Shown piece after piece: positions 21,712-49,700 of a stretch of 60,229 nucleotides of DNA. The stretch lies in the NCBI GenBank assembly GCA_964579435.1, contig CAZOGI010000009.1, positions 1 through 60,229 on the forward strand. Direction: 5' to 3'. Position numbers and translations under genes: made by a program. Numbering within the stretch: position 1 is the first letter of the stretch; the number at the start of each line of letters is the position of its first letter. The DNA is from an uncultured Planctomycetales bacterium. Lineage in GTDB: Bacteria; Omnitrophota; Gorgyraeia; Gygaellales; Profunditerraquicolaceae. The notes below the pieces were generated by a model. It did not search any database and had not been told where the DNA came from. It worked only from the letters and a program-made list of their open reading frames with translations.

Positions 21712-21712
21712 C

Positions 21713-22738: not shown

Positions 22739-22753
22739 TTTTCTCGACGCCCT

Positions 22754-26732: not shown

Positions 26733-26741
26733 ACGCTAATC

Positions 26742-26769
26742 TTGCAAGGATACGCTTTTCTGATATAAT
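26742..26769 (+). promoter_or_regulatory. Sigma70-type promoter TTGCAA-16-TATAAT; predicted start at the A of ATG 26776 (leaderless)
   Basis: -35 box at 26742-26747. Perfect -10 box at 26764-26769. Six nt (TCAACC) separate it from the ATG. Confidence 0.6.
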
Positions 26770-26775
26770 TCAACC

Positions 26776-30138: not shown

Positions 30139-30197
30139 TCTGTTTGGGTTTAAACTCCAACTGGGTAAAAGAGTTAGCCGGAAAGACAGAATGTATA

Positions 30198-30226
30198 ATT
30201 ATATCTCGAAAAATAAAAAATCCCAA
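30198..30226 (-). promoter_or_regulatory. Sigma70-type promoter TTGGGA-17-TATAAT upstream of lpxK
   Basis: On the minus strand: -35 TTGGGA (30221-30226, which is also the 3' arm of the trpB2 terminator) and perfect TATAAT (30198-30203). About 55-nt leader to ATG 30138. Confidence 0.55.
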
Positions 30227-30242
30227 GCTTTTTTGCCCGGGA
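30209..30242 (-). terminator. Rho-independent terminator after trpB2
   Basis: Minus-strand RNA: UCCCGGGC-AAAAAA-GCUUGGGA (8-bp stem including two G.U pairs) followed by UUUUUUAUUUUU. Confidence 0.8.
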
Positions 30243-30263
30243 TGAGGGAATAGATTGCCGCTC

Positions 30264-31610: not shown

Positions 31611-31616
31611 GGGGGT

Positions 31617-31645
31617 ATTATAGTCGGGAGAGAGGAGGAATGCAA
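31617..31645 (-). promoter_or_regulatory. Sigma70-type promoter TTGCAT-17-TATAAT for trpB2; ATG 6 nt after the -10 box (leaderless)
   Basis: On the minus strand: -35 TTGCAT (31640-31645), perfect TATAAT (31617-31622), ACCCCC, then ATG at 31610. Confidence 0.6.
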
Positions 31646-31680
31646 TAGAAAAGTGACAGGGCACCTGGTGATTAGAAAAA

Positions 31681-31742: not shown

Positions 31743-34700
31743 TTATTTCCTGACGAATTTTTGTACTTCGGGCGCCGTGGCGCCTGATTCGATGAACAAC
31801 AACACCTCCTCGATATCTTTATCCGTCGCGCAGCAGCGTTCCTCTTCGCTGCGCAGGATGTCGGCGGCGCACGCCAACACCTTGGCCATATCCGCAGGGG
31901 CGACGTTATTGCCGAAACAAGAAGCGACGTAGCGCTTGAGCCGCTCTCCCGACGGAGCAATGCCGCCGGCCCAGAGCTGTTCGATCTGCCGCCATTCACC
32001 GCTCAGTTGCTGGGCAGAAACGGCGTCGCAGGCAGCGGAAAGATGCGCGATCGATAACACTGCCTGTTGCGTCACCACCGGCAGCGAACGGAAATCGATA
32101 CCCCCGGTCCGGTCCGGGGTTACGCCGTCAAGGGGAGCCAGCGGGGCAACCGGGCCCGAAGAAGACGGCCCCCGACGCTCCTGTCTTTCATCTCCCGGAT
32201 TCCCGCCCCCCTGCCGGTACGCAGCTTCCAGGTCGGCGCGCGACACTTCGGCCAACACAACAGAAGCCTGCAGCATGGCGCGCAACTCCTCAAGGGCAGA
32301 AACCGTATTGGCGTTGCCAAAATCGATGAACCGGACGTTCCCGGCCTCATCAATAAAGATATTCCCGGTCTGCAGCACGCCGTGATCCACCAAGTCCCCG
32401 TGGGTCAGTCCCAAGGCGTGCAGCGCCCCCAGCGCACGCATTACCTGCAAAGCGTACGTCCGCCGCTCCTGCGCAGATTCAACCTGCAGCAGCAGCTCCC
32501 GCAGCGCCACACCCGGCGCCGGGGCGGTATAAAGGACCCTGCGGCCGGCGGCATTGCGCAGGACGGCTGCCGGAACCGACAAACCCGCCTGGGCCGCCTG
32601 ATTCATCGCCGCCGCTTCCTCTTCAAACCCCGCCTCGATCATATCCGCCACCGCTTCAAAGCGCCGCAGGTCCGCAGACTTGACAAAGAACCGGCGCGTC
32701 CCGGCCTGCTCAAAACGCAGCGTCCCCTGCTCGACGATCCTGCCCTGATTTTCTTTGACCTTTACCAGAACCGCACCCTCCCGCAGCGGGTCGGAGGCAG
32801 CCACTCCCAGCAATGCGCGTAACGGTGCCTCGGCCTGAGGCGCCGCCGCAGGAAGCTCCTGCTCAGGCGGCTTTGCGCTCTTAAGCTCTGCCAGCAGCGC
32901 GGCAAGCGTCTCGGCGGCAGCTCCCTCCTGCCACAGCAACACTCCCCCTTCCAGGAGCGCCCATACCGCATCGTCCTTGAGACCGCCGAGAACGCCGGTT
33001 AAAGCCGCATGCTCCTGACGGCGCAATTCCGGATGCAGCAACACCGCGAATATGCTTTCCAGCAGCTGCATCCGTGTCGCCGCATCCTGCGCCGTTACTG
33101 CTTCATGCGGGGACCGCAGGAAATGCGAGATCAACTCGTTCTGGCGGGTCACGTCTATCATGCCCATACCCAGCGGTACCGGGCGGGGCTCATCCGAGGC
33201 GCCCTGCGTGGGCTGCGGATACGCTGCCGCCGGTTTCGCGGCGCCGGCCGCAGCGGCAACACGCATCGCCTGATGCCGCTCCTGCGCCCTGCGGCGCGTC
33301 TCTTCCCGCCGCTGGCTTATCGCCTGCTGCGCCTTGGAGGAGAGCGCCGCGAGGGCTCCCCGCAAATCGCCGTTGAGCTTTCCTTTGACCTGCAGATAGG
33401 CGATCTTAAAAAGCGCCTCCAGATACGTCTCGGCGGAAACTTCACTCTCAAGCGGCATATAACAGGGATAGTTCTCGGCCAGCGCTCCGGCTTCGGCCGA
33501 ATCCTCGATGCCGATAAAGGCCATGTCGACCTTGTACTTGCGCGGCCGCTGCGCCGGGGCTCCCCGCGCGTCCGGCTTCTGGTATTTGCCGTTACGAAAC
33601 GCGGCTATTTCCTGTTTCAGCTTCTCGCCCGTGCCCCGGCTTCCCGTCTCCTGTCCGTCGGTGAAAACAAGGACCAGATTCTTGGTCCGTTTGCCGGAAA
33701 CCGAGGGGAATTCGGTCTCGCTGAGGGTATCCAGAAGCGCGGGAGTCTCAATGCCGCCGCCGTCGCCGGTCGTCCAGATCCGGGAGAGGGCCTTTTCGAT
33801 AAGCGCCTTCTTCTGCCGGTGACCTTTTGCCCGCTGCCACTCCCTGAAATCGAAGAGCCGGGTCGTCTTGGTGCTGATCGTCATCAGGCCGATATTGAGG
33901 TCCGGGTTCTTGCGCGAAAGGGCCAGGAGCAGGGAAACGTACTGGTAGAGCATATCCTCGATCGCCTGCCGCAAGACGGTATTGCCCTGGATGCTGCCGC
34001 TGACATCGACCACGAAGAGCACGTTCTGCGCCAGGCCCTTGACCTCATCCTCGTACTGCGGGGCCAGGAACATGCGCGCCGGATCCCCCGCCAGCACCCC
34101 TTCGGGGTCGATCGCCACGCCGCCTTCGGTAACGTTGCGCATCCCGACGCTGTCGTCGGTGGCGTCGCGGCTGAAAAGACGGGCATACCGCTGCATCCAT
34201 TTCTGGACCGCAAGCGGCAGTTGCCGGCGCTGGGAAACCTCCATCTTCTTCTGCGGGTTCTGCTCGTCATCCACCAGCTTCTTGCCGCCTTCGAATTCAG
34301 GGACCTGCGCATCGGTCTCGGCGATCACCTCATCCTTGACATGCGGGGAAAAAGCCGGGCCGTACGAGAGGGGGATCTCGCTGACGTCCCCTTTGATATT
34401 GACCCTGACCGTCTTGGTGCGGTAATAACCGCGGTCAACGTGCGGGTAGTACTGTGCCGGATCCCGCCAGAAAGAGATCCCGCAGCGCCGCAATTCTTCG
34501 GAGGAAACCGATTCGACCGCGGAGACGATCGCACGGATACGGTCATCCTCGTAGCGCTCGATCAGCCGCAGGTTGAAACGGATCGCAAAGGCGTTCAGCA
34601 GCTCCCGCGTTGCCAGGGCATAGGCATCGTCGTGGGCCGACTTGTTCTTCTGAACCGGCGTGATGAAATTGGCGATGCTCGCTTTCAGGTAGGCCGCGGG

Positions 34701-37700
34701 GTCGGGAATCAACAGCACCGGGAACAGCACCGAGTAGAGCTCGACGTTTTGCTTGAGCCGCTTCGCTATCTCCCGGGAGAATTCCGTATGGCCCAGGCCG
34801 GTCTTTTCGGAGATGAAATGTCCCAGCTCGTGCGCCGCCACCTCAAGCTCGCGCGCCGCATCCCCGAGACCGATGACGACGATATTCTGGCCGTCGAAAT
34901 AACCGATCGCCCCGTCGGGCTTGCGGTCGATGACGACGATCTCGGGGACGACGTTATCCTTAAAGACCGCCCCGTAGACCTCATCGCCGAGGACCTCTTT
35001 GAGCTGGGCGCGGTCAAAGGAAACCGTGCGCAGGATCGGGGTCGCCCGAAAGCGGATAAAGTGGCTTCCCGCATACTGCACCCGGGTGATATTTTCCAGC
35101 AACACCCCGTTCTCCCGGGCGTTACGCTCTATCTTCTGCGTCGCTGCCAGGAGCTGCTCGACCGACTCGGCGGCGTTATATTCCTGAATGAGCTCGGCGA
35201 GCCGCACATCCAGCAGTGCCGCAACTTCCGCGGTGCGCGCCAGGAGCCGGGCATCAACCTGGTTCATGGCGATCCCCTTGAAGAGCTCCACGAGGACCTC
35301 TTCGGCAAAGAAGGCGTAGCATTTCGCCTTCTCAGGCGCGGTCTGGGCCCGGTCATAGGCCTTCTGTGCCGCATCCAGCGCCTTCTGCATTACTTGCGCA
35401 TCGAAGGAAAACTTTTCGGCCAGTTCCTGCGTTATCCGTTCCCGCTCCTCTTCGCTTATCTTTTTTTCCTCTTCCTCCTCTTTGCGTCGTTCCTCAGTAT
35501 CTTCGGCGACGCGGAAACGTTCCCTGATCTCGCCGGCCAGGGCGGAGAGCGGACGCGCCGCAGAAGGCGCCGGGATCTTCTGTACGCGCGCCGGCTCAAG
35601 CGGCACCTCGAAATACCCGCCGGACGCCGGGACGATATCGATCCCCTCCAGCGCCTTCTCCCGCGCGAAATACCCCTCGCCGCGGCGATACAACTCGTCG
35701 ATAATCCTGAGGATCTCCTCCCGGCTGAAGGTCTTCAGTGGTTCCCCGACATAAACCTTGCAGGCCTTGGCGCTGATCGCCGCCGGATAGTTAAAACGGT
35801 TCCCGGAGGCGCCGGAGCCGCCGTAGCGCTCGGCGGGGTTATAGGTAAGGATCACGCTCACTTCGGCGTCGACCTCGACGCGCAGCGTCTCCCCGTCGGG
35901 AGACGGGACGCTGAAAACGCGTTCGCCGCGGGCCAGGGCGTCGAGCAAATACCAGACATCGCGGGTGATATTGGCTTCGTCGATCAAGAGGCGCACGCGG
36001 TTGGAGGTCGCAAACCCTGCCGAGAGACGCCTACCGTTGACGGTGCCGACACTCAACAGGAATTCCTGTATGTTCATCTGCGCCTCGCCGGCGAAGGAGA
36101 GGCTTGCCGTCATATGCGAATCGCGCATCTGGCGGTGCGGGTTCAGGCGCACCACCGGCACGCCCTGAGCCCGGCTGAGCATATTGACGACGCTGGTCTT
36201 ACCGCTACCGGTCTCCCCCGGGACAAGAATCAGCCGGCTGGGAATGAGCCGGCCGCTTGCGGAGACCATCGTGCGCTCGGCTTCCAGGATCGCCCCGATC
36301 GCCTCCCGCAGTTCGGCAGCCGGATACATGACGTCCTCGGCGCCCATCTCCTGCCAGGGGAGGGCTCGTTTCTTGTTCGCCTCGGCCATCGGAAGCGGCA
36401 CACCGCCGACGGCGCTCATCAACTGCAGGCGCAATACGAGCGTTCTGCCCGTGCGGTAGACCGCCAGCCCAGGCGAAAGCTCAAGCGCCTTATCCGCCCG
36501 ATCGGGAAGCTTGGCGCCTTGCAAACGGTAGACATTCGCCGGGGTGATGACGGAAAACGAATCGCCGTCCTGGCGCACGATGATCCCGTTCTCCAGATGC
36601 GTCACCGCGCTTGCCCCGTCCTTAACCGCAACGGCGATATCATAAGCGGCGACCTCGGCCGCGGTGAAGGCCTTGCTCAGGGCCGCGGAGAGCTGCGTAT
36701 AATAGCGCTTCAGGGCCGCTGGTTTGATATCCGGGAAGAGCCCGCCCAAGAATCCTTTGAGCAGGATCTCCTCCTCGAAAAGCATCCGGTCGTCGGGATA
36801 GAGGCCGCGCAGATAAAAACTGCGCACCGCCCGCATCACGTACCATAACGGGTCCGTCTGTTTCTGTCCGGACGCCGCATCGTGCTGCTTGGCCAACTGC
36901 ACGCGCGCGGCCAGCTCCAGGATATCACGCAGGGAATAATGGTTGTCGGAAAGTTCAAACCGTTTCTCCCGGGTAAACTCCGCCGCCGCAGAGGCGATTC
37001 GCAGAAGCAACTGCACCTCATCGGCCGAAACATCGGGGAACTCATGCCGGATCACCTGCGTAACCTCCGCCGGATCCTGCGGGAACGCAAGGGCCAGTTT
37101 TTTGAAACGGTTCGCAAAAGGAGAGGAAAGCCGCTCGATATCGGAGGTGATCACCACGATATGCACCCACGAAGGCAGCGTGTATTCGACGAGCCTTCCC
37201 GACTCGTCTTTCATGACCACGGTATGCGTGGTCTGGAGGCGGTTAAGCTTTACCAGTTCGCTGGCGGGTATCGATTCAATGTTGGTGATCGCGATCACCG
37301 TCTCCTGGCCCGGGGTTTTCAGGGAGGCCAGCTCCGCGCTCTTGACCAGATGCCTGCCGATCTCGCCTCTGATCCGGCGGAACGTATCGGTGCGCGCCGT
37401 GCGCCGGCCGGCGCCGTCGAACTCGCCCGGAAACTCGAAGGATTCGCTCTCGAAGAGATGCTTTGCGGTGACGAACGGATGCCCTTCGACGATCTCCAGT
37501 CGCTTGCCGAAACGCAGGCACATGAGCTTGACCGCTTCCAGCCCGAATCCGCCTGCCGGCTGATTCACCAGCACCTGCCTGCCGCCGGCATCGACCATAT
37601 GCGCCAGGATGCTTACCGCATCGCGCATGCGCGCGGAGTTCTCCCAGAAAGCGACCTGCGTTTCATCGACAAAACGGGAACGTGCAGCCGTTACGGGCGC

Positions 37701-40700
37701 CTTGCGGGGACTGAGGGGGCGGTAATCGGGGAAAAATTCCCTCACGATTCGTGTAACTTCCTGGCGTTCGGCAGGATCGAGCAGGCCTTCCGCATAATTG
37801 ACCGTAATCTGCTCATACAGAGCCTGCTTGATCCGCCGGGGTTCCCGGCGCAGCTGCTGCACGATCTCGATGAGGTCGCGCGGGCTGATCGTGCGTTTCT
37901 GGGGATGGGAAAGGCTCAGCTTATTATGAAGGTGGGCCAGCTGCATCTTCAGCTCCGCAGGGAACACGGCCCCCTCGAGGTAATAATCGATGAGTGAGCG
38001 AGCGTCCTCATAGCTGAGGATATTGTCGACGCGGATCTTGCCGCAGAGCTCATCCGCCGATTGCGGCAACTCTTTGCGGCCTTCGGTCTTGAAATGGTAA
38101 TTCTGCGTGATCACGAAGCTGAACCGCGGGTGGCGTTTGATCACTACCCCCTGAAGGCCGGGATGGAAATCACCGAGGTCGATCGCATCCTGGCGCGCTA
38201 CCGTCACCAGCCAGCGCAAAAGATGCCCGGCGGCATCCGAGACGCGCCCTTCATCCGCGATATAGACGCCTCCTTCGCTGTAGGCCCGCAGGAAATCGAG
38301 CAGGTACCTGCCCGATGCGTCTTTATCGAGCGCGTTGAGGGCGATCTCCCTGCCGCGCAGCGTCACCGCGCCCAGAAGCGCGGAAAGATCGATCCATTTG
38401 TACATTCCTTCTTCGAACGATTCCCGCGCGCTCACCAGCGCTATTTCGTGCGAAGAGGTGGTCTTGCCGCCGCCGGGATCGCCTTCCAGGACCACCGGCA
38501 ATCCCGCGCGCTCAAAGAGCAGCTTCGCCGCTTCCTGCGCCAAGAGATTCTGCAAGGGCGCCTGGAGCCGCACGCGCTCGGCAACGCCGTCCCTGATGAA
38601 TTCGTAGCGGCCGTATTCGTCGAGCTGCCGTGCCGATGCGTACGGAGTCTGGACCTCGCCGAGACGGTACGTGCGTCCGCCCAGCGTCGCGGTAATGCCG
38701 TACCAGACGCGGCGCTCTCCCGGACGCAACGCCGACTCCCGCAGCGCGAACTCCCGCTGGTAGCGCACCGCCCCGGCTTCCAAGCCGATCCGGTCGAGGA
38801 ACTCCTTGCGGAAATCGCGCGGCGCAGCTCCTTCCCCGGCAGCCTCCTCTTCCGCGGCAAGGCCGCTGCCCAGCAGATGGTACGCCAGCAGCCGCAGGAG
38901 CACTTCATCGAGCGAGCCTTCCTCTGCCCTGCGGTTGATCTCCGCAAGAAAAGCGTCGACATTCGGCGCGCCGAGACGGTTGTACGCATACAACCCGGCA
39001 TCCTTCTGCGCCTCAAAAAGTTCCCAGGCCGCACGGGCGCATGCCGCCGCCGCAGTGCGCAGGCGCGCCGGTACGGCCCCGGAAAATCCCGCTTCGAGGC
39101 GCGAGGCGATCCACGGCCCGTCGATCGTCTGGGCGAGATTGACCGCAAAGAACCGGTCGACATCGGCCGGATGCAGGGTGATCTCTTCGTTGGCCTCGCC
39201 CAGAATGACAAAACGCAGGTTCGACGGCTTGAACCCGATGAGGTAGCGCACCAGCGAACGGCGCTCTGCGGCAAAGAGCGCTTCAAGGCTTACCGCCAGG
39301 GTAGTGCCCGTCGCCTGCTCATACGCGCCGCGGACCCGCTCGAAAGCGCCGGATACGCCCAGACGGCCGATAACCGAATCGATCAGATCATCGTCGATAA
39401 TATCGTCGACCTGCAGCCAGTTGGTCTGGAAGAATTCGTTCAGGAGCGGGGCGACTTGCGGATTGAGGTCGAGGTACCCCTGCACCCAGGCGCAGTGCTG
39501 GCGCTCATCCAGATGCGCCTGCAGGATCAGCGAGCTTAAAACCCCCAGCTTGTTTGACGGCTCCCCGTCTTCGGGGGTTTTGCTCAGGCCGCCGATGAGC
39601 TTTGCTTTGGTATGGAAACGGCTGATATTGACCGTATGCTCCCGCACCGTCCCTGCCTGCGGGAGGATCGCCGCGCGGATGCGCGGGAAGCCGACGGTCT
39701 GGTTATCGAAGACCAAAAGCGGGATATCGAGGGAAAAATCGCGCAGGAACGAAAGGAGTTCCGCTTCGGTCGGCGGCGCCAGGTCGCCGGTCACCCCGGC
39801 CAGGATCCCTGCGGCAACCATACGGTCAAACTCATTCTCCCACATCCGCACAAAAACCACCTGAAGCAGAATTTCAAACGCCCGCTGCGCCGGCATCCCG
39901 TTCGCGAGCAGAGAAGCGTACAAGGCACAGAAACGCTCGACCTGCCGGGGAGTGATCTCGCGGGAGGAGACAAACTCGCCTTCCAGGACCCCGCGATTGA
40001 ACCGGTTATAGACCGCGGCAAGCGATTGGGAATGGCGCCTGGTCTCGGCGGAAGACTCAGCGATGCCGGATTTGCGCAACCAGCTCTCCATCAGACGCAG
40101 GGTGATCTCATTCATCTCCTCGGCCGAACGCTCCATACTGTAGACCGCAGGCATCATCGCAGCCACCGCCCCGGATATCCCGTCTTCGCGCATATTTCCG
40201 GTGGCGATATGCAGCTGGTCCCGGCCGAACGCCACCGCTTCAAGGGGATCGTCCGGATCGAAACCCTGCCCAGGGAATTCGGCGCCGAAACGCACCCTGC
40301 GCCCGGCCAGGGTGGGCCAGAGCCACTGCAGGAAGAAAACGCGGGTATCTGCCTCGTTATAAATGAAGAACGCGTTATCCTCGCCCTGTGCGCGCCAATA
40401 GTCCGGCACCCGCAAACTGATGCCCTGGCGGCTCAAACCCAGCCCGCCGCGGAAGAACCCCAAATCGATCTCCTTGTTCAGGGTATATTCGTACGGCTGC
40501 GCTCCCACGACATCGGCGAATACACGGGCAATGGTTGTCTTGCCGCCGCCGGGGGAACCCATCAGAAAGATGAATTTGGATGGCGCAAAGCGGTGCACGC
40601 GCGCCAGGAGACAGAAGATCCTCTCTTCGGTAGGCGTCATAAAATAATCCCGCTTGCCGCCGCTTGCCTGACTGACAAAACCTTCAAGCGCGTCCTTGAA

Positions 40701-43700
40701 CGGGATCCCGCGATGCCGGGAAAGGAATTGCCCGAAGGCGCTTTCCGGACTGACCGGGATACTGATGCCGCCTGCATCTATCCGATCCCCTGACGGGGAG
40801 AGGCCGACCGTAAAACCGGGCGTCTCTTTAAGGCCCAGCAGAGACCGCAATTCGGGAAAGATTTCTTCCTGCTCCGGTGCCGGGACTTTGGAACTCAAAT
40901 GCAGCCACGCCTCCTGCTTGATGAGACCGGACAGCGCGCTCTCGGGCGCACCCTCCTGCAGGCGTCCGGCGACGTACGAAGCTATCTGTATGACATCCTG
41001 CAGCAGGTACCGTTCCCGGAGCACCGGATGCCCCTGCAGATCTTCCCACAACCCGACGAGCGTCTCCGCCGCTTTGCCGGAGAGCTTAAAGCGCCGGGCC
41101 AGATACGCGCGTATCTCCTTGGTCCCCGGGACGCCGAGGAAAAACCCGGAAGAACGGTCCATGAATGACTCGTCGCCGATATCGGCATCCTCGTGCATCG
41201 TCATGACGATCTGCAGGTTCTTGGGCAACGGCTGCTCCCCGATCATTCTGCCGTCAGCAGCTTTCTCGTTTGAAAGGGTGACCTTGCGCTCCAGGAGCAC
41301 CTGGTGAAGCGCCATGCGCAAATCCCCGGAGGCATACTCGATATTCTCCAGGACCAGATACACCTGTTGATCGGGATTCTGCCGCGCCACTTCCATCATC
41401 CGGGCAATGATGCCGCGGCTCCACTGCGGCCGGTGGGTAGCCGGATCCGGCAGGCTCCTGCCGAAGAATTCGCCCACCTGGGAGAACCCGCTCATCGGTA
41501 CGGCAAATACAAGGGTATTGTCCTGGAGGGAGAGCGACTCAGCCGCCATGTTGGCAAAATGATTCGACGGGGTAAAGAGCATCAGGGGCAGCCCGCAGGC
41601 GCTCGCCCGCTGGGCGGCGACGATAACCTGGCTCTGCGATTCCAGCGCCGACGGCGGCAGCGGCGTCCTCTCGAACGTCCCGCGCGAAAACAAATCCGTC
41701 AGCTTGCTGCCGGTCAGCTCTCCGCGATTGGAAACGCTGGCGGTGACATAGAGCGGCGCATACTGCTTGCGCAGGAAGACCTCGCGCATAACCGCCCCGA
41801 ACATATGCTCTTCCCCGCGGCCGATGTAGCGGCCGTACACCGTCCAGGCAGTCAGCTGGAAGAGATCGAAGAGACGGGAAACCGCCTCTTCCGGATTCTG
41901 CAGGTAGTAGCGGCTGAAGACCTTGTTGAAACGGTGCACCTCGCGGAAGGTTATGCTCCCGCGCAGATGCAACCGTCCGCTCTCGGCCGCTTCCTGCAGG
42001 GTCTCGGCGATCTCTTTGCTCAAGAGTTGTATCGCCTTGAACTCGTGGGCGCTGACTTTGGGTTTAAGCAGCGCCTCGAAACGCGGATACTGCTGGCGCA
42101 AGCTCTGGCGCAGGTCGCGGTAGAGCAGGATCGCATGCTGCGGGAGCATCTTCTTGGCCGCGTTTGGATCGCGCGCGACGCGCTTGGCTTCTTCCTTGAA
42201 GGCGACAAAGTCCATGCCTTCGGTAACGCCGCTGTAGCGCATGCCGATATCGATGTAGTAATAGAGCAGCCGGTCGGGATCTCCGTTCTTTCCGGCGCCG
42301 CAGAGCCGGTCCAGCTCCTGATCGATGAGCCTATCGAGCTCTTGTGCCAGCGCCTCTTCAGCGGCCTTTGCCGATGCTGTCTGGTCTATGGCTGATACGG
42401 GCGAGAGCCTGGGCTGAGCCTGCTCTATCTGCGCCCGGTATTTCTGAAGGGCACCCTGCGGGTCGCGGTGGATAAGGACGAAATCTTGCTGCATAAGGGC
42501 GCAAAATTCCTTCCACGGCAGCCGGTAAAAAGCAAGCAGGACTTCGCGTTTTGAAGCCGGAAGCTTATCCAGAACCGACGTTTTGGGCGGCCGATCGTGC
42601 ATGACCGTCTCGTAATAGATATCCAGTTTCAGGCGCATGGCGCGACGGACGTCTCCGGCAATCGCCGTCTCGATATACTCCCCCTGCCCCCACCACTGAC
42701 GCAGGTCCGCAAACGGCGCATCCCCGAACACAAGCGCCCAATCCTCCTGGAGCGAATCGCCGTGCAGGGAATTCCCGGGCTTGCGCAGATGTTGTTTGGC
42801 TGCCTCCTTCGCCACGTCGAGCATCTTTGCCTTTGCCAGGCCGCGCACGAAACGCAGCGCTGCCTGTGCAGGCAGGCGCATACTTTCCAGCGCACTCTGG
42901 AGCACATGGGCATGGAACGTTCTGACCTCATTTGAGGCATCTGCATCCTCGATGAGCCGCAGCGATTCCTCGGCCAACGCCGGATTGTTCACCACCGCAG
43001 CGACACAAAAAGACCGATAATATGACCGACCCTGCTCGTCCTGGTCCTCGGGCCGCAACATCTCCAGGGCATCCCGGTCCAGGACGATCCCCGGATTACC
43101 CGTAAGACCTCCTGCCAGCATATGCAGGACCGCAATCCGCAGCGCGGTATTGGAAGGATCCTGACGCACCGCCTGCAGGCAGATCTGTGCCAAGGCCGGT
43201 GTATGGGCGATGCCATACTTAAGCGCATCGGCCAGCAACATCCATGCCCAATTCGCGTCGGGCTTAAAGAAAGAGAGGAGCGTGCGGAACCGATCCTCGG
43301 GGAAACGGAAATTTTTCTGACGGCTGAGCGCCTCCCCGAGGGCGCCGGCATAATCAGTAGCGACCGTTCTCTGCGCGATGATCGCCCCGATCAACATCAT
43401 GATGTCCGCGTCGCTGACGGTAATCTCTTGATTGCGGTTGAGCCCGCTCCTGAGCGCATCACCTAAGCCGTGGCGGACATACAGCGGCTGATCGTGCCGC
43501 AGCAGCTGCAGGATCCGGCCAATCAGCTCAGGACGTTCAGACGCAGCTATCCCCACCGCCTCACTCACGTATTGCGAGACATCATCGAGATGATATTCAA
43601 TCGCATCACCTTTCAAGGCAACAACGACCCGGTCCAGGAGATCGGGGTTGCGCGCCAGCGCAAGAGCTACCACCCGCCGCAGCGCTTCCTTGGAGGAATT

Positions 43701-46700
43701 GTCTCCCCGGTACCCGCGCACCAGCATCGACAGCAGCGTATCCAGATGAGCCGGAGTAATCTCGCAACGCCCCGCCCCTTCAAGCGCCCGCTCCAGAGGA
43801 CCGGTCATTTTGTAAATAGAGCTGCCGCCTTGACGGAGCGAATTGACCAGCAAGGTCGTCTCCGCTTCGTTTAACCGGACCGACTCATGTGCCGTAAGAA
43901 CACGCGCCAAACCTTCATGGAAGAGCGAACGCTCGAAGCTGCCGGTCGTCAGCTTCTCGATAGCATGCAAAAGCAGCGGCGCCAGTTCTACATTGTTGAC
44001 CGCAGCCTCGCTCAACGCCTCGACGAACATGGAATACGCCATGTGCACGGTAACGTTGGTCTCCAGACAAACATTCAGCAGCACCGTTGCTTCCTCCCTC
44101 GTCAGTTGCACCCCGCGCTGCGCCTTAAGCAGAGCCAGAAGCTCTTTTGCCTTTTCGCTTGCCGCATCCACATCGCGGGAAGCACCCAGGGCATCCGCGG
44201 CCATCTGCTGCAGGAGCTGATGTGCCCGGGCATGCTCGGGGCTTGAAAAAACGGCCTGCGGCACCAAGGGCGCGTCCGCGGGCTTCTTTGACGTCTCCTG
44301 CGTCTGAGGCGGCTCAACGGTCACGGGCGCCGGCGTCGTCTGAGAAAACCGCTCCCAGGCAGCCCGCGGCTCTTGGTGTACCGCCTCGAAATCGTTGCGC
44401 ATGAACCGGCAAAACTCTTTCCAGGGGATACGGTAGAAGATCAGCGCTTCGGGCACGACAGGCTGCGCCGAAAGAAGCTCTCGGGTTTCGCGGGCATGCT
44501 TCAACCGGTATACTTTTTGTTTAAACGCCGCAGCGGCCGCGTCGGTTTCGGCGAAAACCGCCGCCTGATACTCGGCTTCCAAATCGCCGGTTATCTCGGA
44601 GACGAAATCAGGATCGACCAGGAGGATCTCAATGACGTTCGGCAGTATCAGCCGGTTATCCTTTAAACGCTCCAACAGATACGCCTTATCCTGAGCACTG
44701 ACAAACCCGGCAAGGGCCCCGAGATTTCCGGGGCGAAGGTTCGCAAAACGAAGCAACGCCTCGATAACGGATTTCCAGGCGCCAAGCGTTTCTGCCGTGA
44801 CCAGCCCGTATTCGGCAGCCAACGCCAAGATGCTATACGCTTCAAAACCTTTATTGGCGCTCTTCTCTGCGATGAGACGCAACAGCCCCAGGTCAAGGAC
44901 GCTTCGGTCCAATCTTTTGCCGGCAACATCATTCACCAGACCTTCCAAGCGCATATATGCCTCATCTGCCTCGAAATCTGCCGCCCCCTGCCTGACTGCC
45001 GACACCAAAAGCTCCTGCAACTCCCCGATATGCTCGCGCACCGGAAACCCCGCCCTGGCCATTGCCGTCAAAACCCTTAACGGCGCAAAGGCAAATCCCC
45101 GGTTTTCGATAATAACCGTCGCGATCATCTTCGTAACCGCGTCCCGGTTCGCCGCATCGGCTGCGCCGCTCTCAACCAGCGCATCCGCGCATTCTCTTAA
45201 CCTGCGTTGTCCTTCAACAGCATCCGGCGATATTTCGCCTGCGTCAACGCTGCCCTCAAGGCTGCGGTAGAATTCATCTTTATCCACCGCCAAAGGATTG
45301 GCCGGTACCGGTAGCGCCAGGACCTGCGGATTGCGGTGGATTGCATCATATCCGTGCTCCTCGATCGCCTTACAGAACTGGCTCCAAGGCGACCGGTACA
45401 GGCCGATGAGTGCCGCCAAGACAGCCGGGTTTGCGTATTCCTTAAGCTTCCGGCCGGCGCTGCGACGCTGTATTTGGCAATATTTGCGCTGCTTAAAGAG
45501 CATTGCCTTATGCGCATCAGGTGAGAGGAGGGCATCGATATACGCCTCCTCATCCCCGGATATGATCGCGAAATCGCCGCCGCTGCGCTCCTGCGACAGG
45601 AGAATGAGTTGGACATCGGAATTAAAAACAGCGCCCGCGGCAAGCTCGGCCGCAGAAAGCGTTTCTGCGCGGGACGTCAAAGCCCCGAAATTCCACTCGG
45701 GAACCCCGGCACGCAACCCTTTGAACAACGCCAGCACCTGCGGCACATTTCCTGCGGTTGCCGCCCCCGAGCGCACCAGACTCCCCAGCGCAACATTCGC
45801 CGCAAGCAAGACATTCGAATCGCGGTAACGGAAAAGTTCCTTGAACAACTCCGCGACCTCGGAAAGATTGGCCGGGGTGATATACCGCGCTTCGGCCAGA
45901 TTACTCATGAGATTATAGATCTGGAGAGCGTCGGCCTCCGCAATGCCCTTGAGGATATCCTCAAGGAAAGCCTGTATTGCGGCAAAATTATTTACGGTGA
46001 CCGCTCCGTTGTACGCCAGGACATTCAGCATCCCCAACCCGTGACGATGCTTCTCCCCTTGCGCGATATTGAGCATCGTAAATAACCGCTCGATTGCAGG
46101 AAGGGTATCCGGCGTCACGAGCTGTTTGTCTGCGAGAAACCGAAAGACAAGAATCACATCAAGAAGGTTCGTCCCCGGCTGTTTCCCGAGAGCTGCGAAC
46201 ATCCGGATCACCTGTTGGCGATTCTCAACGGTCAGGGCCCCGTTATTGATCATCGGCACGACATAGCGTTCCCTAAAGGTCGCGCGATCTTCGGGCGTAA
46301 GATATTTTTGGACCGCCTTGAAAAATTCCTCTACTACCTGTTCTTGGGAGACAGCCCCCGGAGCCGCTTTGATGAGTTGAGAGGGGTTACGGTGCCCCGT
46401 CTCATAACCCTTTCCCTCCATCACCGTGCAAAACTCATCCCAGGGAAGGCCGTAGATGCGCACCATTTGTGCCAGAAGCGTCGGCTCCTCGTGCGCGGCA
46501 AGAATCCTCCCTTTTGATGCCTGCGACTGCCGATACAAACGTTGTTTTAAGATCATTGCCGCAACGGCATCTTTGGAAAAGAGCGCCTCGGTATAAAGTG
46601 CCTCATAGCGGTCATCGAGAGGCATCCCTCCGAATGCCTGTTCACGCAGCAGGATGAGACGAACATCGGGATGGATCACGGTTTCATCCGTGATCATCTG

Positions 46701-49700
46701 GGCGGTGACTGTGTGTGCCGCCGGAATGCCAAAGGCGGAGAAATTCCAGTCAGGGCGAGTGACACAGAGCGCTTCAAAGAGTTTTTGGACCTGCGGCAGA
46801 TTATCCGGGGTAACCGCTCCTGACGCCGCCAGCCGCCGCAAACAATCGTTTGCAAAAAACGAGTTCCTGCGTGCCCTTTCCGAAATCAAAGCAATGAGTG
46901 CTTTCACCCGGTCAAAGCTTGCCTCGGTAATGACCCCTGCTTCTGCCAAAGCACCCAATGATTGGTAGTCATCCGAAGCGGCTCCTTTCTGTGCAAGAGA
47001 TAGCAGGTACGCACGATCAAGTACGAGTCGATCCAACCCCTTGCTCCGCACCTTTTCAGCGAGCTGTTGTAAAGCACTATAATAGAGGAAAGAATCCGAC
47101 GTGAAAGAAGCGAAAGTAGACAGAAGCGTAAGATCCAACACCACCGGATCCAGTTGTCGCTGCCTGACACCTCTGGCCAGATCCGCAAAGGCCTTGAGAT
47201 TAGCCTGTACACTCCCCTGCGGGATCGACTCATCGGTCATGGAGGAAAACAGAGCGGCAACGGCCTGCCCATCGCTCTCTTTGATGCTGCCGCTGCGCAC
47301 CAATTCCGCTATTGCCGCACGCATAGCTTCATGATACGACACGCCAACTCTCGAGCGCGCCAGCTCAAACAGTACGCTTGTCAAAGACTCTTCCGGCGCC
47401 TGAGCGGACACCGGACCAACGGCACCAGAGACCTTCTGGTCAAAACGGGAAAACAGGGCCGGATCCTGATGCACCGCTTCGTACCCCTTTTCCTCCATGA
47501 CCTTGCAGAATTCAGCCCAGGGCAAACGATAGATCGGCAATAAAAACTCCCGGGTAGTTATATCCAGCGCCTTGAAATCGGTCTCTGCCAATCCCGGTTT
47601 CTGCGCCTGCATCAGATACAGCTTCTGTTTCAGGGAAAGCGCCAAGGCGACATCCCCCGTTGCCAAAGCACGGGCATACAGCTCCCCGAACTCCGCTCCC
47701 TCGAGCAACTCGTCGTAATCCTGATCGAGCGGTTCGGGAGGCAACGTTTTTATGAGCATCAAAAAGACATCGGGAGAAAAGAGCGTGTTGTTTTTGATCT
47801 TATCTGCGGTAATCGTCTGTGCCTCAAGCATCAGGTCAAGGGCGCCGAGGCTCGCTGCCGGCCTACCTGATGCGGCAAGCGAAGCGCTCAAGGCCGCTGC
47901 TTCCCCAATATTATCCGCAGAAACCGCCCCGGCTTCCGAGAGTATCTGCAACGCCTGCAGCGCATACCCCGGCCTGCCGCCGCTGTGAGCGATCATATCC
48001 TTCAGGAGCGCCGGCGTCAGCGCCCCCGGGACAAGACGTGCGATCCCCGGATCCAGAAGGAGCAGCTTAAGCGACTGCAAGGAATTAGCTGCCTTCTTCC
48101 CATCGATCCTGATGAGAGCAGTCAAAAGCTCCTTCTCCAGGAAATCTCCCGGGATCTTGCCGGTGGATACCGCCTCGCCGAGATTGAAGAGCTCGGTCAA
48201 AGCCGGATGAATGCCGGTTGCCGTATGCGCCCCCATCTCGGCAAGCACCGCCGGATCAATACAGCGGACGTCAACCTGGCCTTTGGCTGCCGCCATGCCT
48301 AACACCCCCAGGAATGCATAGGTTGCGGAAGCGTCATCCCCGGAATGTTCGGCAATGGCATATAACAAAGGAAAGGAAAAAACGGCGGGAGATGCTTCAT
48401 GGGTATTCACTTTTTGCGACAACTCTCCCAGCGCGCGCAAACTCGCAGCGGCAACATGCGGCCTTGTATAAATTATGCCGAAGAGCTTCTCGATATCCGC
48501 CGGCCCGACACTGCGCCCGCGCAAGGCTTGCGCAAGATGCAAAAAGCTCTCGAAAGAGATCCTGCAGAAGACCTCGTTGTGCCGGGCAAGACCGGTTAAA
48601 AACTCCAGCTTCGCCAACGCAGGATCGATTCTTCCCCCCGCGATCGCGTAGGCAATTTCGGCCACCTGTTCGATCGATTCCGTGGCAAAGACAAAGTTAA
48701 CCCCCTGGTCTACATTGGCAAGGACCGCGCGCATCAAGGAAACGACCTGCGCCCGTGTCTGCGGCGTCAAGAGACGAGCACCGGCTAAGGCGTCAAGCGC
48801 GGCAAGAATACTATCTTTATACGCAAGGCTCTTGGCATCGCTGGAGAGCTCTTCCCACACCTCCTGCGCCATCCCCGGGGCAGCCGGGGGAACAGGCCGA
48901 GTCACTGCTGTTGCAACCGGAGCCAGGCGCGCCTGCGCCTGGCGAGGAGCGGTATGCACCAGCTCAAAGTGCTTGTCCATGACTTCGCAGAATTGCTGCC
49001 ACGGCAAGCGGTAGAATGGCAAGGCCTCCCGCAGCACCGCGGGATCCTCATATGCAGGCAGAGAGCTGCCGCGGGTTGTTTCTTGCAAGGCGCGGTACAC
49101 CCGCTGTTTCAGGATCATCGCCCGGACCATATCGGGCTCACAGAGCACGCCGAGATAGGCCTGGCGCCGCGCATCGTCCTCGGTCAGCTCCGGGGTATCG
49201 CCGAGGATCCTGGCCCACTCCTCATCCTGCAGATGCTCGTGCAACGGCTTTTTGCTTATCTCCAGATAATTCTTGAGGCCGTTCTTGATCCCCAGGGTAT
49301 CGCCCGCCGCGTACAGGGTTCTGACAATCCGCAGCGCATCCTGCGGCGACGGCAGAGGAGGCGCTTCTTCGAAGGTCAACCGGGCGAATTCAAGCGAGGC
49401 GCCGAGTGCATACAGGAAAAACCGGCGGGCATCGGCGGAGAGCGCAGGATCCCCGGACCGCTCGATATATTCGTCGATCAAGGCCGGATTGAATTGCGCG
49501 GCATGGCCAAAGGCACGGGAGAGCCCCCAGATCTGACTGAACGCATCGGCCCCGGCAAACAAACGCAACGCTTTTTCGCGTAATGCCTGGCTCTGGGACA
49601 GAGAGCGCGCCAGCGCCAGCCCCAACAGAGGACTGTCGGTTGAGGTGGATTGCAGCCGTTCTTTCAACGTCTGCAGAAGGATCTGTGCCGTCTCCCCGCT

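What the first reader, a model, noticed from the sequence alone, without database searches (positions are those of the whole stretch)
33500..41610. Midasin/dynein-like layout: six concatenated AAA+ modules, charged segment, then a MIDAS-containing vWA domain
Three canonical P-loops sit at 40533-40559, 38467-38493 and 36192-36218. Each has a matching hhhhDE/NE Walker B, and they alternate with three modules whose Walker A is degenerate. Spacing is ~330-380 aa, so the chain looks like six AAA+ modules, enough for a complete ring from a single polypeptide. Downstream come an E/K-rich stretch (~35410-35510) and a vWA domain with DVSGS...TDG. Six AAA in one chain followed by an acidic linker and a C-terminal MIDAS domain is the defining plan of eukaryotic midasin/Rea1. 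MoxR-vWA pairs are the known prokaryotic relatives, but normally as two small proteins. Here the plan is embedded in a giant bacterial protein with extra enzymatic domains.
Basis: partly seen in the sequence, partly recalled or inferred. Interest (0 to 1): 0.85.

Follow-up and report, generated by a model that had tools for sequence, protein, structure and literature searches.

The report
Bacterial single-chain six-AAA ring with MIDAS
A 9,387-residue bacterial protein, apparently from an Omnitrophota-type bacterium, carries six fused AAA+ motor modules (three active, three degenerate) followed by a metal-dependent adhesion (vWA/MIDAS) domain, a body plan so far credited only to eukaryotic midasin and dynein-type machines.

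Summary
One ORF (31743-59906, minus strand, 9,387 aa) holds six consecutive AAA+ modules at aa 6085-8105.

- **Active modules.** D2, D4 and D6 have canonical Walker A/B motifs.
- **Degenerate modules.** D1, D3 and D5 lack a Walker A but keep a 100%-conserved arginine at the arginine-finger position.
- **Structure.** AlphaFold models of both halves match three-module arcs of dynein rings (Foldseek E 1e-23 and 3e-17).
- **Closest relatives by sequence.** These are midasin AAA modules: a D4 profile scores 50.9 bits against Rea1 AAA5 and 32.8 bits against NorQ.
- **Downstream of D6.** A short E/K-rich helical segment, a conserved HExxH+E zincin-like domain, a vWA domain with conserved DxSxS/T/D motifs, and a Bud32/RIO-like kinase domain.
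- **Family.** The pre-D1..D6-HExxH-vWA block is colinear in about 30 full-length 50%-identity cluster representatives of giant proteins, with partial contigs adding more. Most are Omnitrophota; single MAGs are labelled Chlamydiota and Elusimicrobia.

It is not a midasin orthologue. The modules do not map one-to-one, only three P-loops exist, and there is no long linker or acidic region. I read it as a fused MoxR/midasin-type remodelling machine with three composite ATP sites. I found no prior description.

The parts
31743..59906 (-). Giant ORF, 9,387 aa (stop codon included in the coordinates)
   Evidence: ORF list; translation
42522..56807 (-). N-terminal array (aa 1034-5795) of at least 12 divergent tandem repeats of about 350 aa. 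Each starts with an 'LPWxEFCxVMEE' motif. No Pfam match.
   Evidence: motif positions; pairwise BLAST 24-56% identity; no Pfam hit
41655..42029 (-). Conserved 'pre' domain (aa 5960-6084) that precedes D1 in most full-length family members
40635..41654 (-). AAA+ module D1 (aa 6085-6424). It is degenerate: no Walker A, and the Walker B-like motif is VLEN. R6251 is invariant at the arginine-finger position.
   Evidence: AF2 and Foldseek; 25.8 bits against midasin AAA3; hhalign against midasin AAA1, E 1.8e-6; R6251 conserved in 100% of 31 members
39702..40634 (-). AAA+ module D2 (aa 6425-6735). It is active: Walker A GSPGGGKT (aa 6450-6457, nt 40536-40559), Walker B FFIYNE, and a midasin-type lid (aa 6625-6701).
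   Evidence: (AAA_5, AAA_lid_7)
38580..39701 (-). AAA+ module D3 (aa 6736-7109). It is degenerate and recognisable as AAA+ only by structure. R6918 is invariant. It ends in a beta-rich insert (aa about 7047-7113).
   Evidence: AF2 and Foldseek; no sequence signal; R6918 conserved in 100% of 25 members
37587..38579 (-). AAA+ module D4 (aa 7110-7440). It is active: Walker A GDPGGGKT (aa 7142-7149, nt 38460-38483) and Walker B VYIADEG.
   Evidence: profile against PDB gives Rea1 AAA5 50.9 bits over the whole module; 56.6 bits mean against midasin AAA5
36357..37586 (-). AAA+ module D5 (aa 7441-7850). It is degenerate (PAGGFGLE in place of a P-loop). It has a midasin-type lid (aa 7614-7677), an invariant R7600, and ends in a beta-rich insert (aa about 7750-7833).
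35592..36356 (-). AAA+ module D6 (aa 7851-8105). It is active: Walker A GETGSGKT (aa 7897-7904, nt 36195-36218) and Walker B LLIDEAN.
   Evidence: Pfam AAA_5; NCBIfam GvpN 7e-5
35040..35591 (-). Helical linker (aa 8106-8289) that contains the E/K-rich stretch (about aa 8130-8166, nt about 35410-35518)
34407..35039 (-). Conserved HExxH+E (zincin-like) domain (aa 8290-8500). HELGH is at aa 8359-8363 (nt 34818-34832) and NVELYS at aa 8387-8392.
   Evidence: H, E, H, N and E invariant; only motif-level metallopeptidase hits
33357..34109 (-). vWA domain (aa 8600-8850) with MIDAS motifs: D8634-x-S8636-x-S8638 (nt 33993-34007), T8721 in DGGGIxT, and D8750 in TDG (nt 33654-33662)
   Evidence: Pfam VWA 4e-10; conservation; integrin I-domain alignment
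32277..32654 (-). Bud32/RIO/Kdo-like small kinase fold (about aa 9085-9210) with HGDL (aa 9169) and IDFGN (aa 9194). Of the relatives compared, only P0001 extends far enough past the vWA domain to test, and its tail does not align to this region.
   Evidence: (regions after the vWA domain do not align between relatives)

Best explanation
Residues about 5960-8850 of the giant protein form a self-contained mechano-enzyme. It is a single polypeptide that folds into a pseudo-hexameric AAA+ ring of the MoxR/midasin/dynein (AAA_5, helix-2-insert) type, tethered through a short helical E/K-rich linker and a zincin-like HExxH domain to a vWA domain with a MIDAS site.

The ring is a trimer of two-module units (degenerate + active). 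ATP is bound and hydrolysed only by D2, D4 and D6. The P-loop-less modules D3, D5 and D1 each keep an invariant arginine that would reach into the neighbouring active site: D3 into D2, D5 into D4, and D1 into D6 across the ring closure. This gives three composite catalytic sites.

By analogy with Rea1/Mdn1 and NorQ-NorD, the MIDAS metal ion would capture an acidic residue of a target protein. ATP-driven movements of the ring would then pull or twist that target, extracting or remodelling it. The adjacent HExxH domain may cleave it.

The 6,000-aa N-terminal repeat array and the N-terminal hydrophobic segment would serve as scaffold and anchor.

Shown here: the six AAA folds, the motif pattern, the conservation, and the midasin-like sequence affinity. 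Inferred: ring closure, the arginine-finger role, the docking of the vWA domain, and the nature of the substrate.
For: - Six modules: AF2 and Foldseek match dynein three-module arcs (E 1.1e-23 with TM about 0.55 for D1-D3; E 3.2e-17 for D4-D6).
- Module type: Pfam AAA_5 and midasin-lid hits.
- Midasin affinity: a D4 profile against PDB gives Rea1/Mdn1 E 1.8e-61, with the best single stretch at 50.9 bits over the whole module. NorQ scores 32.8 bits over the P-loop region only.
- Module HMMs against 45 midasins: D4 56.6, D6 38.8, D2 27.1, D1 25.8 bits.
- Motif pattern across the family: Walker A/B are conserved in D2, D4 and D6 and not in D1, D3 and D5.
- Complementary arginine pattern: Arg is 100% conserved in D1 (R6251), D3 (R6918) and D5 (R7600). 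It is absent in D2, 47% Trp in D4, and 76% Arg in D6.
- Unit duplication: D1+D2 aligns colinearly with D5+D6 (336 columns, 88.6% probability).
- MIDAS motifs: D and S of DxSxS and D of TDG are invariant; T is at least 90% conserved.
- Family: colinear pre-D1..D6-HExxH-vWA in about 30 full-length cluster representatives.
- Mechanistic precedent: the vWA domain docks on the AAA+ ring in NorQD and Rea1 (PMC13036017).
Against: - Ring closure and vWA docking were not modelled, because each half was predicted separately.
- The D4-D6 model has low confidence (pLDDT 64.3), and D6 is poorly modelled.
- D3 shows no sequence similarity to any AAA+ profile and rests on the AF2 model alone.
- D2 has Asn in place of the Walker B Asp (NE), which could make it a binding-only site.
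- The MIDAS Thr assignment is by motif. In the HMM alignment to integrin alpha-M, the conserved Asp of DGGGI, not T8721, falls near the integrin Thr position.
- The N-terminus looks like a signal peptide or signal anchor, also in relatives. If the bulk of the protein were exported, an ATPase mechanism would make no sense.
- No substrate, neighbouring-gene or expression evidence exists. The neighbours are LPS biosynthesis genes and differ between loci.
Confidence: 0.7

Rival explanations
1. Common descent of the whole plan. This bacterial family and eukaryotic midasin (and dynein) would descend from one ancestral protein that already had six tandem AAA modules plus a C-terminal MIDAS domain. 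The fused ring would then predate eukaryotes, or have been passed between a PVC/Omnitrophota-like bacterium and the eukaryotic stem.
For: - Outside the family, the best hits in 5.8 billion proteins and 1.84 billion representatives are midasins, not single-module MoxR proteins.
- In PDB, the D4 profile scores 50.9 bits against one Rea1 module and 32.8, 23 and 22 bits against NorQ, CbbQ and the MoxR structure 2r44.
- Both share six modules followed by a vWA/MIDAS domain.
- Both show a two-module periodicity: midasin AAA1/3/5 versus AAA2/4/6, and here active versus degenerate.
Against: - There is no diagonal in the module-by-module matrices. Every detectable module matches midasin AAA3/AAA5 best.
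- Midasins have P-loops in all six modules (45 of 51 examined), whereas this family has three.
- There is no equivalent of the midasin linker or D/E-rich region.
- The vWA profile does not retrieve Rea1 MIDAS at all.
- The whole-protein searches favour long multi-module proteins, because scores from several modules add up.
Confidence: 0.2
2. Independent (convergent) origin. A bacterial MoxR-type AAA_5 gene and its vWA partner fused, and the AAA module was duplicated into a degenerate+active pair and then triplicated inside the Omnitrophota/PVC lineage. The likeness to midasin would then reflect shared MoxR ancestry and similar constraints. This concerns origin only and is compatible with the mechanism given as best explanation.
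For: - Modules are not colinear with midasin.
- There is internal unit homology: D1+D2 aligns with D5+D6, and D2, D4 and D6 detect each other.
- The vWA domain is generic.
- The family is confined to a few bacterial phyla.
- MoxR-vWA pairs are ubiquitous in prokaryotes (PMC7159879).
Against: No single-module MoxR was found that is closer to these modules than midasin is. The available MoxR structures are few, so this is weak evidence.
Confidence: 0.55
3. ATP-dependent protease. The ring would unfold or feed substrates recruited by the vWA domain to the HExxH domain, as proposed for MoxR-vWA-peptidase operons and as in FtsH. Proteolysis, not remodelling, would be the end point.
For: - HExxH plus a downstream Glu are invariant, and the domain always sits between D6 and the vWA domain.
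- The MoxR-vWA-peptidase model is in the literature (PMC3495828).
Against: - The HExxH domain has no significant match to any peptidase family or structure beyond the motif.
- AAA_5/MoxR-clade rings are not known as processive unfoldases (established knowledge; not tested here).
Confidence: 0.3
4. The six modules do not close into one ring. They would form an open spiral or pair with modules of other chains, or the degenerate modules would be mere spacers.
For: - Ring closure was not modelled.
- The inter-module geometry of the D4-D6 model is poor (TM about 0.3).
- One complete relative (P0002) replaces the first half of D1 with a receiver-like domain.
Against: - The D1-D3 model superposes on a dynein ring arc (TM 0.52-0.58).
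- The module number is always six in full-length members.
- D1 keeps an invariant arginine that only makes sense if it contacts D6.
Confidence: 0.12
5. Anti-phage or conflict system of the MoxR-vWA ternary type, with the kinase and peptidase domains as effectors.
For: - Weak bpMoxR hit at the D2 P-loop.
- Weak mad6, mad8 and PD-T4-6 hits.
- Omnitrophota giant proteins are linked to predation (10.1101/2023.11.21.568195).
Against: - All PADLOC hits are generic P-loop or kinase matches of 12-24 bits.
- There are no defence neighbours.
- The kinase-like domain was not seen in the one relative that extends far enough to test (P0001).
Confidence: 0.05

Closest known systems
Midasin (Rea1 in yeast, Mdn1 in fission yeast and human), the eukaryotic pre-60S remodelling AAA+ protein
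   Same: - Six AAA_5-type modules in one chain, followed further downstream by a vWA domain with a MIDAS site.
- It is the nearest sequence relative of the active modules (D4 against AAA5: 50.9-56.6 bits).
- Midasin-type lids (PF17867) are present after D2 and D5.
- Both show a two-module periodicity.
   Different: - Only three of the six modules have P-loops.
- Modules do not correspond one-to-one.
- About 185 aa of E/K-rich helix plus a zincin-like domain stand in place of the 1,700-aa linker and roughly 600-aa D/E-rich region.
- The N-terminal extension is 6,000 aa rather than about 300 aa.
- A kinase-like domain follows the vWA domain.
- The vWA domain shows no specific similarity to Rea1 MIDAS.
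- The host is bacterial and lacks Rsa4/Ytm1-type ligands.
Bacterial MoxR-vWA pairs (RavA-ViaA, NorQ-NorD, CbbQ-CbbO)
   Same: - AAA_5 helix-2-insert ATPase working with a MIDAS-bearing vWA domain.
- NorQ and CbbQ are the next-best PDB hits, and GvpN is the best NCBIfam hit for D6.
- The likely working principle is the same: the vWA domain docks on the ring and the MIDAS site holds the target.
   Different: - Those systems use a homo-hexamer of one small protein plus a separate vWA protein.
- Here there are six different fused modules with half of the sites dead, and the vWA domain is on the same chain.
Dynein heavy chain motor domain
   Same: It is the best structural match for both three-module halves (Foldseek E 1e-23 and 3e-17). 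It is also a single-chain ring with a mix of active and inactive modules.
   Different: - No dynein-specific Pfam family is hit, and no dynein appears in the sequence-profile hits.
- There is no coiled-coil stalk or microtubule-binding domain between modules 4 and 5.
- Dynein has no vWA domain.
Mg-chelatase BchI/BchD (and cobaltochelatase CobS/CobT)
   Same: An active AAA+ subunit cooperates with a Walker-less AAA+ module that is linked through a charged linker to a MIDAS-bearing vWA domain (established knowledge of BchD architecture). This is the same logic of active plus degenerate AAA plus MIDAS.
   Different: - These are separate subunits that form two-tiered complexes.
- They belong to a different AAA+ family, and no Mg_chelatase hit was obtained.
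- Only a marginal CobT hit appears for the vWA domain (E 0.77).
RNF213 (mysterin)
   Same: A giant single-chain protein with a dynein-like six-AAA core in which only some modules are catalytic (PMC7311170, listed).
   Different: It is a eukaryotic E3 ligase. It has two adjacent active modules rather than alternating ones, has no vWA domain, and showed no sequence relation here.

Membership tests
Midasin / Rea1 / Mdn1 | Six tandem AAA+ modules in one polypeptide | tested here: met
   AF2 and Foldseek on both halves; motif and HMM mapping
Midasin / Rea1 / Mdn1 | Modules are of AAA_5 type and closest in sequence to midasin modules | tested here: met
   Pfam AAA_5 and AAA_lid_7. D4 profile against PDB: Rea1 50.9 bits single stretch, NorQ 32.8 bits. 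One search gives the matrix. D3 and D5 give little or no signal.
Midasin / Rea1 / Mdn1 | One-to-one (colinear) correspondence with AAA1-AAA6 | tested here: not met
   hhalign and HMM matrices show every detectable module matching AAA3/AAA5 best, with no diagonal
Midasin / Rea1 / Mdn1 | P-loops in (nearly) all six modules | tested here: not met
   45 of 51 midasins examined have six GxxxxGK[ST] motifs. Here there are three, and this holds across the family.
Midasin / Rea1 / Mdn1 | Helical linker of about 1,700 aa and a long D/E-rich region between the ring and the MIDAS domain | tested here: not met
   Only about 495 aa lie between D6 and the vWA domain. They consist of a roughly 185-aa helical E/K-rich segment and a 210-aa HExxH domain.
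Midasin / Rea1 / Mdn1 | C-terminal vWA domain with a complete MIDAS site (DxSxS, T, D) | tested here: met
   D8634/S8636/S8638, T8721 and D8750 are invariant or at least 90% conserved. This is a motif-level test only: there is no structure, and no specific similarity to Rea1 MIDAS.
Midasin / Rea1 / Mdn1 | Acts on pre-60S particles through the UBL domains of Rsa4/Ytm1 | not testable with these tools
   The host is bacterial. No such ligands are expected.
MoxR-vWA two-protein chaperone systems | Single-module AAA_5 protein that forms a homo-hexamer | tested here: not met
   Six different modules are fused in one chain
MoxR-vWA two-protein chaperone systems | vWA/MIDAS partner encoded as a separate neighbouring gene | tested here: not met
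   The vWA domain is fused in the same ORF in all full-length members
MoxR-vWA two-protein chaperone systems | AAA+ core with a helix-2 beta-hairpin insert (MoxR/midasin/dynein clade) | tested here: inconclusive
   The AF2 secondary structure shows a two-strand element between beta2 and beta3 in D1, D2 and D3. I read it from the DSSP string only; coordinates were not inspected.
Dynein heavy chain | Fold match to the six-AAA motor ring | tested here: met
   The top 50 Foldseek hits for both halves are dynein motors
Dynein heavy chain | Coiled-coil stalk with a microtubule-binding domain between AAA4 and AAA5, and dynein-specific sequence families | tested here: not met
   There is no long helical hairpin between D4 and D5 in the model. 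No dynein Pfam family is hit, and no dynein appears in the profile hits.
Known anti-phage defence systems (PADLOC) | Significant match to a defence-system protein model | tested here: not met
   Only generic P-loop or kinase hits of 12-24 bits

The most novel reading that the evidence does not exclude
This family would be a surviving prokaryotic representative of the lineage that gave rise to midasin and dynein. On that reading, the single-chain six-AAA ring with a MIDAS tail existed in bacteria of the PVC/Omnitrophota neighbourhood before or during eukaryogenesis, and it was inherited or acquired by the eukaryotic stem rather than invented there.
Probability: 0.15. Interest if true: 0.95.

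Novelty: new variant of a known kind. Interest (0 to 1): 0.8.

Why it matters

**What this finding adds.** It shows a sizeable bacterial family with the same solution: 65 cluster representatives at E<=1e-30, about 30 of them full-length with the complete block. One chain carries six AAA_5 modules and a MIDAS domain, and its active modules are closer in sequence to midasin modules than to any solved MoxR.

**Two possible readings, both useful.**
- If convergent, it shows that ring fusion with alternating dead modules is a recurrent design.
- If related by descent, it bears on the origin of two hallmark eukaryotic machines.

**Practical value.**
- It offers a compact, prokaryotic and probably expressible model (about 2,900 aa; relative P0002 is 2,810 aa in total) for studying force generation by midasin-type rings.
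- It gives a first functional handle on the Pfam-dark giant proteins of Omnitrophota.
- The complementary pattern of Walker motifs in D2, D4 and D6 and invariant arginines in D1, D3 and D5 is a directly testable prediction.

Tried and rejected
- **Single-sequence and whole-region searches against PDB sequences.** The single-sequence search found nothing. The whole-region profile found only a P-loop match to EccA. The modules are too divergent, and long profiles dilute the signal.
- **Module-versus-module hhalign.** It detects D2, D4 and D6 among themselves, but D1, D3 and D5 only weakly or not at all. The case for six folds therefore had to rest on structure prediction.
- **NCBIfam.** Only weak hits: GvpN for D6 and Bud32 for the C-terminus.
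- **PADLOC.** No defence-system membership.
- **HExxH domain.** No family or structure match beyond the motif. 'Peptidase' remains an inference.
- **vWA profile.** The best hits are integrin I domains. Neither Rea1 MIDAS nor NorD is retrieved, so the vWA domain gives no support for a specific midasin link.
- **Gene neighbourhood.** In the window the downstream genes are a PLP enzyme, LpxK, a lipid A acyltransferase, heptosyltransferases and a T2SS-G-like protein. The neighbourhoods in L001, L002 and L003 are unrelated to it and to each other. No conserved operon partner emerged.
- **First attempt at the exhaustive search.** I repeated it with four rows.
- **Literature.** No paper in the searchable library describes a bacterial midasin-like or six-AAA single-chain protein. 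The two Omnitrophota giant-protein preprints mention AAA_5 only as a frequent domain, or not at all.
- **Midasin orthology or recent transfer from a eukaryote.** I consider this unlikely, because modules are non-colinear, identity within the bacterial family falls to 25-30%, and P-loop content differs.

Full report
**1. What is there**

The finding lies inside a single open reading frame on the minus strand, 31743..59906, encoding 9,387 aa. Conversion: aa n starts at nt 59906-3(n-1).

Pfam finds nothing in the first 5,000 residues. In the last 4,900 residues it finds AAA_5, the midasin lid AAA_lid_7, VWA/VWA_2 and a protein-kinase-like region. Strict P-loops (GxxGxGK[ST]) occur only three times in the whole protein, at aa 6450, 7142 and 7897. 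The only DxSxS motif is at aa 8634.

**2. Six modules**

Five close relatives (38-44% identity), most labelled Omnitrophota by their source and most on short contigs, allowed an alignment. The alignment shows six conserved blocks:

| Module | Residues | Walker A | Walker B-like |
|---|---|---|---|
| D1 | 6085-6424 | none | VLEN |
| D2 | 6425-6735 | GSPGGGKT | FFIYNE |
| D3 | 6736-7109 | degenerate | n/a |
| D4 | 7110-7440 | GDPGGGKT | VYIADEG |
| D5 | 7441-7850 | PAGGFGLE | ITNIES |
| D6 | 7851-8105 | GETGSGKT | LLIDEAN |

Sequence methods alone were not enough for the degenerate modules:
- Segment-wise Pfam gives only weak AAA_5 and lid hits.
- Profile-profile comparison links D2, D4 and D6 firmly, but D1 and D5 only weakly and D3 not at all.

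I therefore spent both structure predictions on the two halves.

- **D1-D3 (aa 6085-7115).** The model has pLDDT 81.8 and pTM 0.73 from an 8-sequence alignment. Its 50 best PDB matches are all dynein motor domains, with E 1.1e-23 to 7e-21, 1,084-1,208 aligned columns and TM 0.52-0.58. They include the isolated AAA2-AAA4 arc 7mi3.
- **D4-D6 (aa 7100-8115).** The model is weaker, with pLDDT 64.3 and D6 poorly modelled. It again matches dynein arcs over 950-1,091 columns (E 3.2e-17). D6 is the module with the best direct Pfam AAA_5 hit.

So there are six AAA+ folds, and at least the first three sit in ring-arc geometry. The DSSP strings show a two-strand element between beta2 and beta3 in D1-D3. 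This is what the helix-2-insert clade (MoxR, midasin, dynein) would show, but I did not inspect coordinates.

**3. The alternating pattern is functional, not decay**

I used HMMs built from the family and the 145 new sequences returned by the exhaustive search. Walker A/B residues are conserved at 70-100% in D2, D4 and D6 and are not conserved in D1, D3 and D5.

The converse holds for the arginine that ends helix 4 just before beta5. This is the 'DRF' position of AAA_5, which I take to be the arginine-finger position.

| Module | Residue | Conservation |
|---|---|---|
| D1 | R6251 | 100% Arg |
| D3 | R6918 | 100% Arg |
| D5 | R7600 | 100% Arg |
| D2 | n/a | Arg absent |
| D4 | n/a | 47% Trp |
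| D6 | n/a | 76% Arg |

In AAA+ rings, module i+1 supplies the finger to the site of module i; this is established for dynein AAA1/AAA2. That rule gives three composite sites: D2/D3, D4/D5 and D6/D1. The last of these needs ring closure.

Unit D1+D2 aligns colinearly with D5+D6 (336 columns, 88.6% probability). This is consistent with a triplicated two-module unit. Each active module is also preceded by a small beta-rich insert in the models.

**4. What follows the ring**

- **Linker.** A helical stretch of about 185 aa contains the E/K-rich run. It is of mixed charge, not acidic.
- **HExxH domain (aa 8290-8500).** H8359, E8360, H8363, N8387 and E8389 are invariant. This is a gluzincin-like signature. 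There is no significant family or structure match, so calling it a peptidase is an inference.
- **vWA domain (aa 8600-8850).** Pfam VWA gives E 4e-10. Across 11 diverse members, D and S of DxSxS and D of TDG are invariant. The second Ser and the Thr of DGGGIxT are at least 90% conserved. This matches the five-residue MIDAS definition DxSxS-T-D (PMC13036017). The exact Thr assignment needs a structure, because in the HMM alignment to integrin alpha-M the loop register is ambiguous.
- **Kinase-like fold.** After the vWA domain, the window protein alone carries a Bud32/RIO-like kinase fold with HGD and DFG motifs.

**5. The family**

- **Word-indexed profile search** of 5.8 billion proteins. It found two further full-length relatives, P0007 (6,703 aa) and P0008 (6,433 aa), and otherwise only eukaryotic midasins.
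- **Exhaustive HMMER search** of 1.84 billion representatives with the D4-D6 profile. It found 476 hits at E<=1e-3, 163 at E<=1e-10 and 65 at E<=1e-30. The top ~95 (E <= 1e-20) are mostly bacterial giants of 2,000-7,600 aa, with shorter fragments among them. Midasins follow, matched at AAA5. No short MoxR protein is among the best 150.
- **Architecture mapping.** About 30 full-length cluster representatives show the colinear block pre-D1-D2-D3-D4-D5-D6-HExxH-vWA, and partial contigs add further members.
- **Names, where present.** Omnitrophota; one Chlamydiota MAG; one Elusimicrobia MAG ('Ca. Liberimonas magnetica'). Annotations read 'AAA family ATPase', 'hypothetical protein' or 'MoxR-like ATPase'.
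- **Species-representative genomes.** Eight loci were found. Seven are Omnitrophota, and none is identical to the window.

The window's organism is thus inferred to be an Omnitrophota-type bacterium. I did not test this with marker genes, and its 60% G+C should be kept in mind.

**6. Relation to midasin, MoxR and dynein**

- **By fold**, dynein ranks first. The PDB holds hundreds of dynein entries, so Rea1 may simply be pushed out of the 50 rows shown.
- **By sequence**, the picture is clear. A 12-member D4 profile against all PDB sequences gives Rea1/Mdn1 at E 1.8e-61. The best single stretch scores 50.9 bits and covers model positions 20-293, core plus lid, on Rea1 AAA5. NorQ reaches 32.8 bits on positions 22-79 only. 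CbbQ scores about 23 bits and the MoxR structure 2r44 scores 22 bits. No dynein is listed.
- **Against 45 midasins**, the mean best-stretch scores are D4 56.6 (AAA5) and 42.1 (AAA3), D6 38.8 (AAA3), D2 27.1 (AAA5), D1 25.8 (AAA3), D5 7.7 and D3 0.

Every module prefers AAA3/AAA5, and there is no diagonal. The family is therefore nearest to midasin modules at the level of the single module. It shows no evidence of descent from a midasin-like six-module ancestor.

The whole-protein rankings are biased towards multi-module proteins, and few MoxR structures exist. A closer bacterial MoxR subfamily cannot be excluded.

The vWA domain gives no midasin-specific signal.

In passing, midasin itself shows an odd/even periodicity: AAA1/3/5 are mutually closest, and so are AAA2/4/6.

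**7. Mechanism**

I commit to the following, with shown and inferred steps kept apart.

Shown:
- six AAA+ folds in one chain
- three conserved ATP sites alternating with three P-loop-less modules that keep an invariant arginine
- a conserved MIDAS-type vWA domain on the same chain
- conservation of this block across a large family

Inferred:
- The chain closes into a pseudo-hexameric ring with three composite sites.
- The vWA domain docks on the ring, as in NorQD and Rea1.
- The MIDAS ion grips an acidic residue of a target.
- ATP turnover pulls or twists the target.
- The HExxH domain may process it.

The N-terminal 5,800 aa are at least 12 divergent repeats of about 350 aa and of unknown fold. 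They probably act as a scaffold.

One unresolved point concerns location. The protein and most full-length relatives begin with a signal-peptide-like or anchor-like segment. An exported location would contradict an ATP-driven machine. I assume an N-terminal membrane anchor with a cytoplasmic body, but this is untested.

**8. Novelty**

The literature I could search treats the fused six-AAA chain as a eukaryotic invention derived from MoxR (PMC3495828; PMC2837639).

West-Roberts et al. list AAA_5 among frequent domains of Omnitrophota giant proteins without further analysis. The 2026 Omnitrophota preprint does not mention it. Searches for bacterial or prokaryotic midasin-like proteins found nothing relevant. 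Subscription-only papers, for example Iyer et al. 2004, could not be read.

I rate this a new variant of a known kind: a MoxR/midasin-type AAA+-vWA remodeller in fused, half-degenerate, single-chain form in bacteria.

**9. Verdict**

- Membership in the midasin family is not supported, because four defining features were tested and not met.
- Interest is high: the finding qualifies a textbook evolutionary statement and gives a tractable bacterial model with sharp, testable predictions.

Noticed in passing
window 42522-56807 (aa 1034-5795), minus strand: The N-terminal two thirds of the giant protein are at least 12 divergent tandem repeats of about 350-370 aa (24-56% pairwise identity). Each begins with 'LPWxEFCxVMEE(K/Q)GY'. 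There is no Pfam match. The same motif marks the boundary just before the AAA block (aa 5796), and in relative P0007 it recurs after the vWA domain.
   Followed up: partly
window 34407-35039 (aa 8290-8500), minus strand: A conserved HExxH + NxE domain sits between the AAA ring and the vWA domain in all family members. It has no significant match to any Pfam family or PDB sequence, so it may be an undescribed zincin-like domain.
   Followed up: partly
window 32277-32654 (aa ~9085-9210), minus strand: A Bud32/RIO/Kdo-like minimal kinase fold with HGD and DFG motifs lies at the C-terminus of the window protein. Only one compared relative (P0001) extends far enough past the vWA domain to test, and its tail does not align here.
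   Followed up: partly
window ~59826-59906 (aa 1-27); also relatives P0007, P0008, P0030, P0041, P0044, P0062, P0075: The N-terminus looks like a signal peptide or signal anchor (basic residues followed by about 16-20 hydrophobic residues), and this is conserved as a feature among full-length relatives. It is hard to reconcile with an ATP-dependent machine unless it is an uncleaved anchor with the bulk of the protein in the cytoplasm.
   Followed up: partly
L002 519-8951 (P0002, 2,810 aa): This is a complete 'mini' family member with no repeat array. A response-regulator receiver-like N-terminus (ILIVDD...DIVLLDNEMP) replaces the first half of D1 and runs straight into the D1 sensor-1 strand. 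It is a natural minimal construct and hints at phospho-control.
   Followed up: partly
L001 10001-30112 (P0007, 6,703 aa): In this relative the long repeat region lies after the vWA domain instead of before the ring. It contains many copies of an 'F(K/Q)NFGLDPxKDKxEIxEIAKLCA' unit. The accessory repeat arrays are therefore shuffled around a constant AAA-HExxH-vWA core.
   Followed up: no
midasin sequences P0006, P0009-P0029 (not in the window): Profile-profile comparison shows that midasin AAA1, AAA3 and AAA5 are mutually closest (E 1e-33 to 1e-45), and so are AAA2, AAA4 and AAA6 (E 1e-33 to 1e-50). Midasin thus also carries a two-module periodicity.
   Followed up: partly
window 18023-31664, minus strand: Directly downstream of the giant gene, on the same strand, lie a PLP-dependent enzyme, LpxK, a fused lipid A acyltransferase/ELM1-like protein, GT4/GT9 glycosyl- and heptosyltransferases, a polysaccharide deacetylase, and a 545-aa protein ending in a T2SS protein-G (pseudopilin) domain. 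This is an LPS-core biosynthesis cluster. It is not conserved next to relatives.
   Followed up: partly
window aa ~7047-7113 (nt ~38568-38768) and aa ~7750-7833 (nt ~36408-36659): The AF2 models show beta-rich inserts of about 65-85 aa immediately before active modules D4 and D6, and a small three-strand element before D2. Each active module thus seems to have its own N-terminal beta domain.
   Followed up: no
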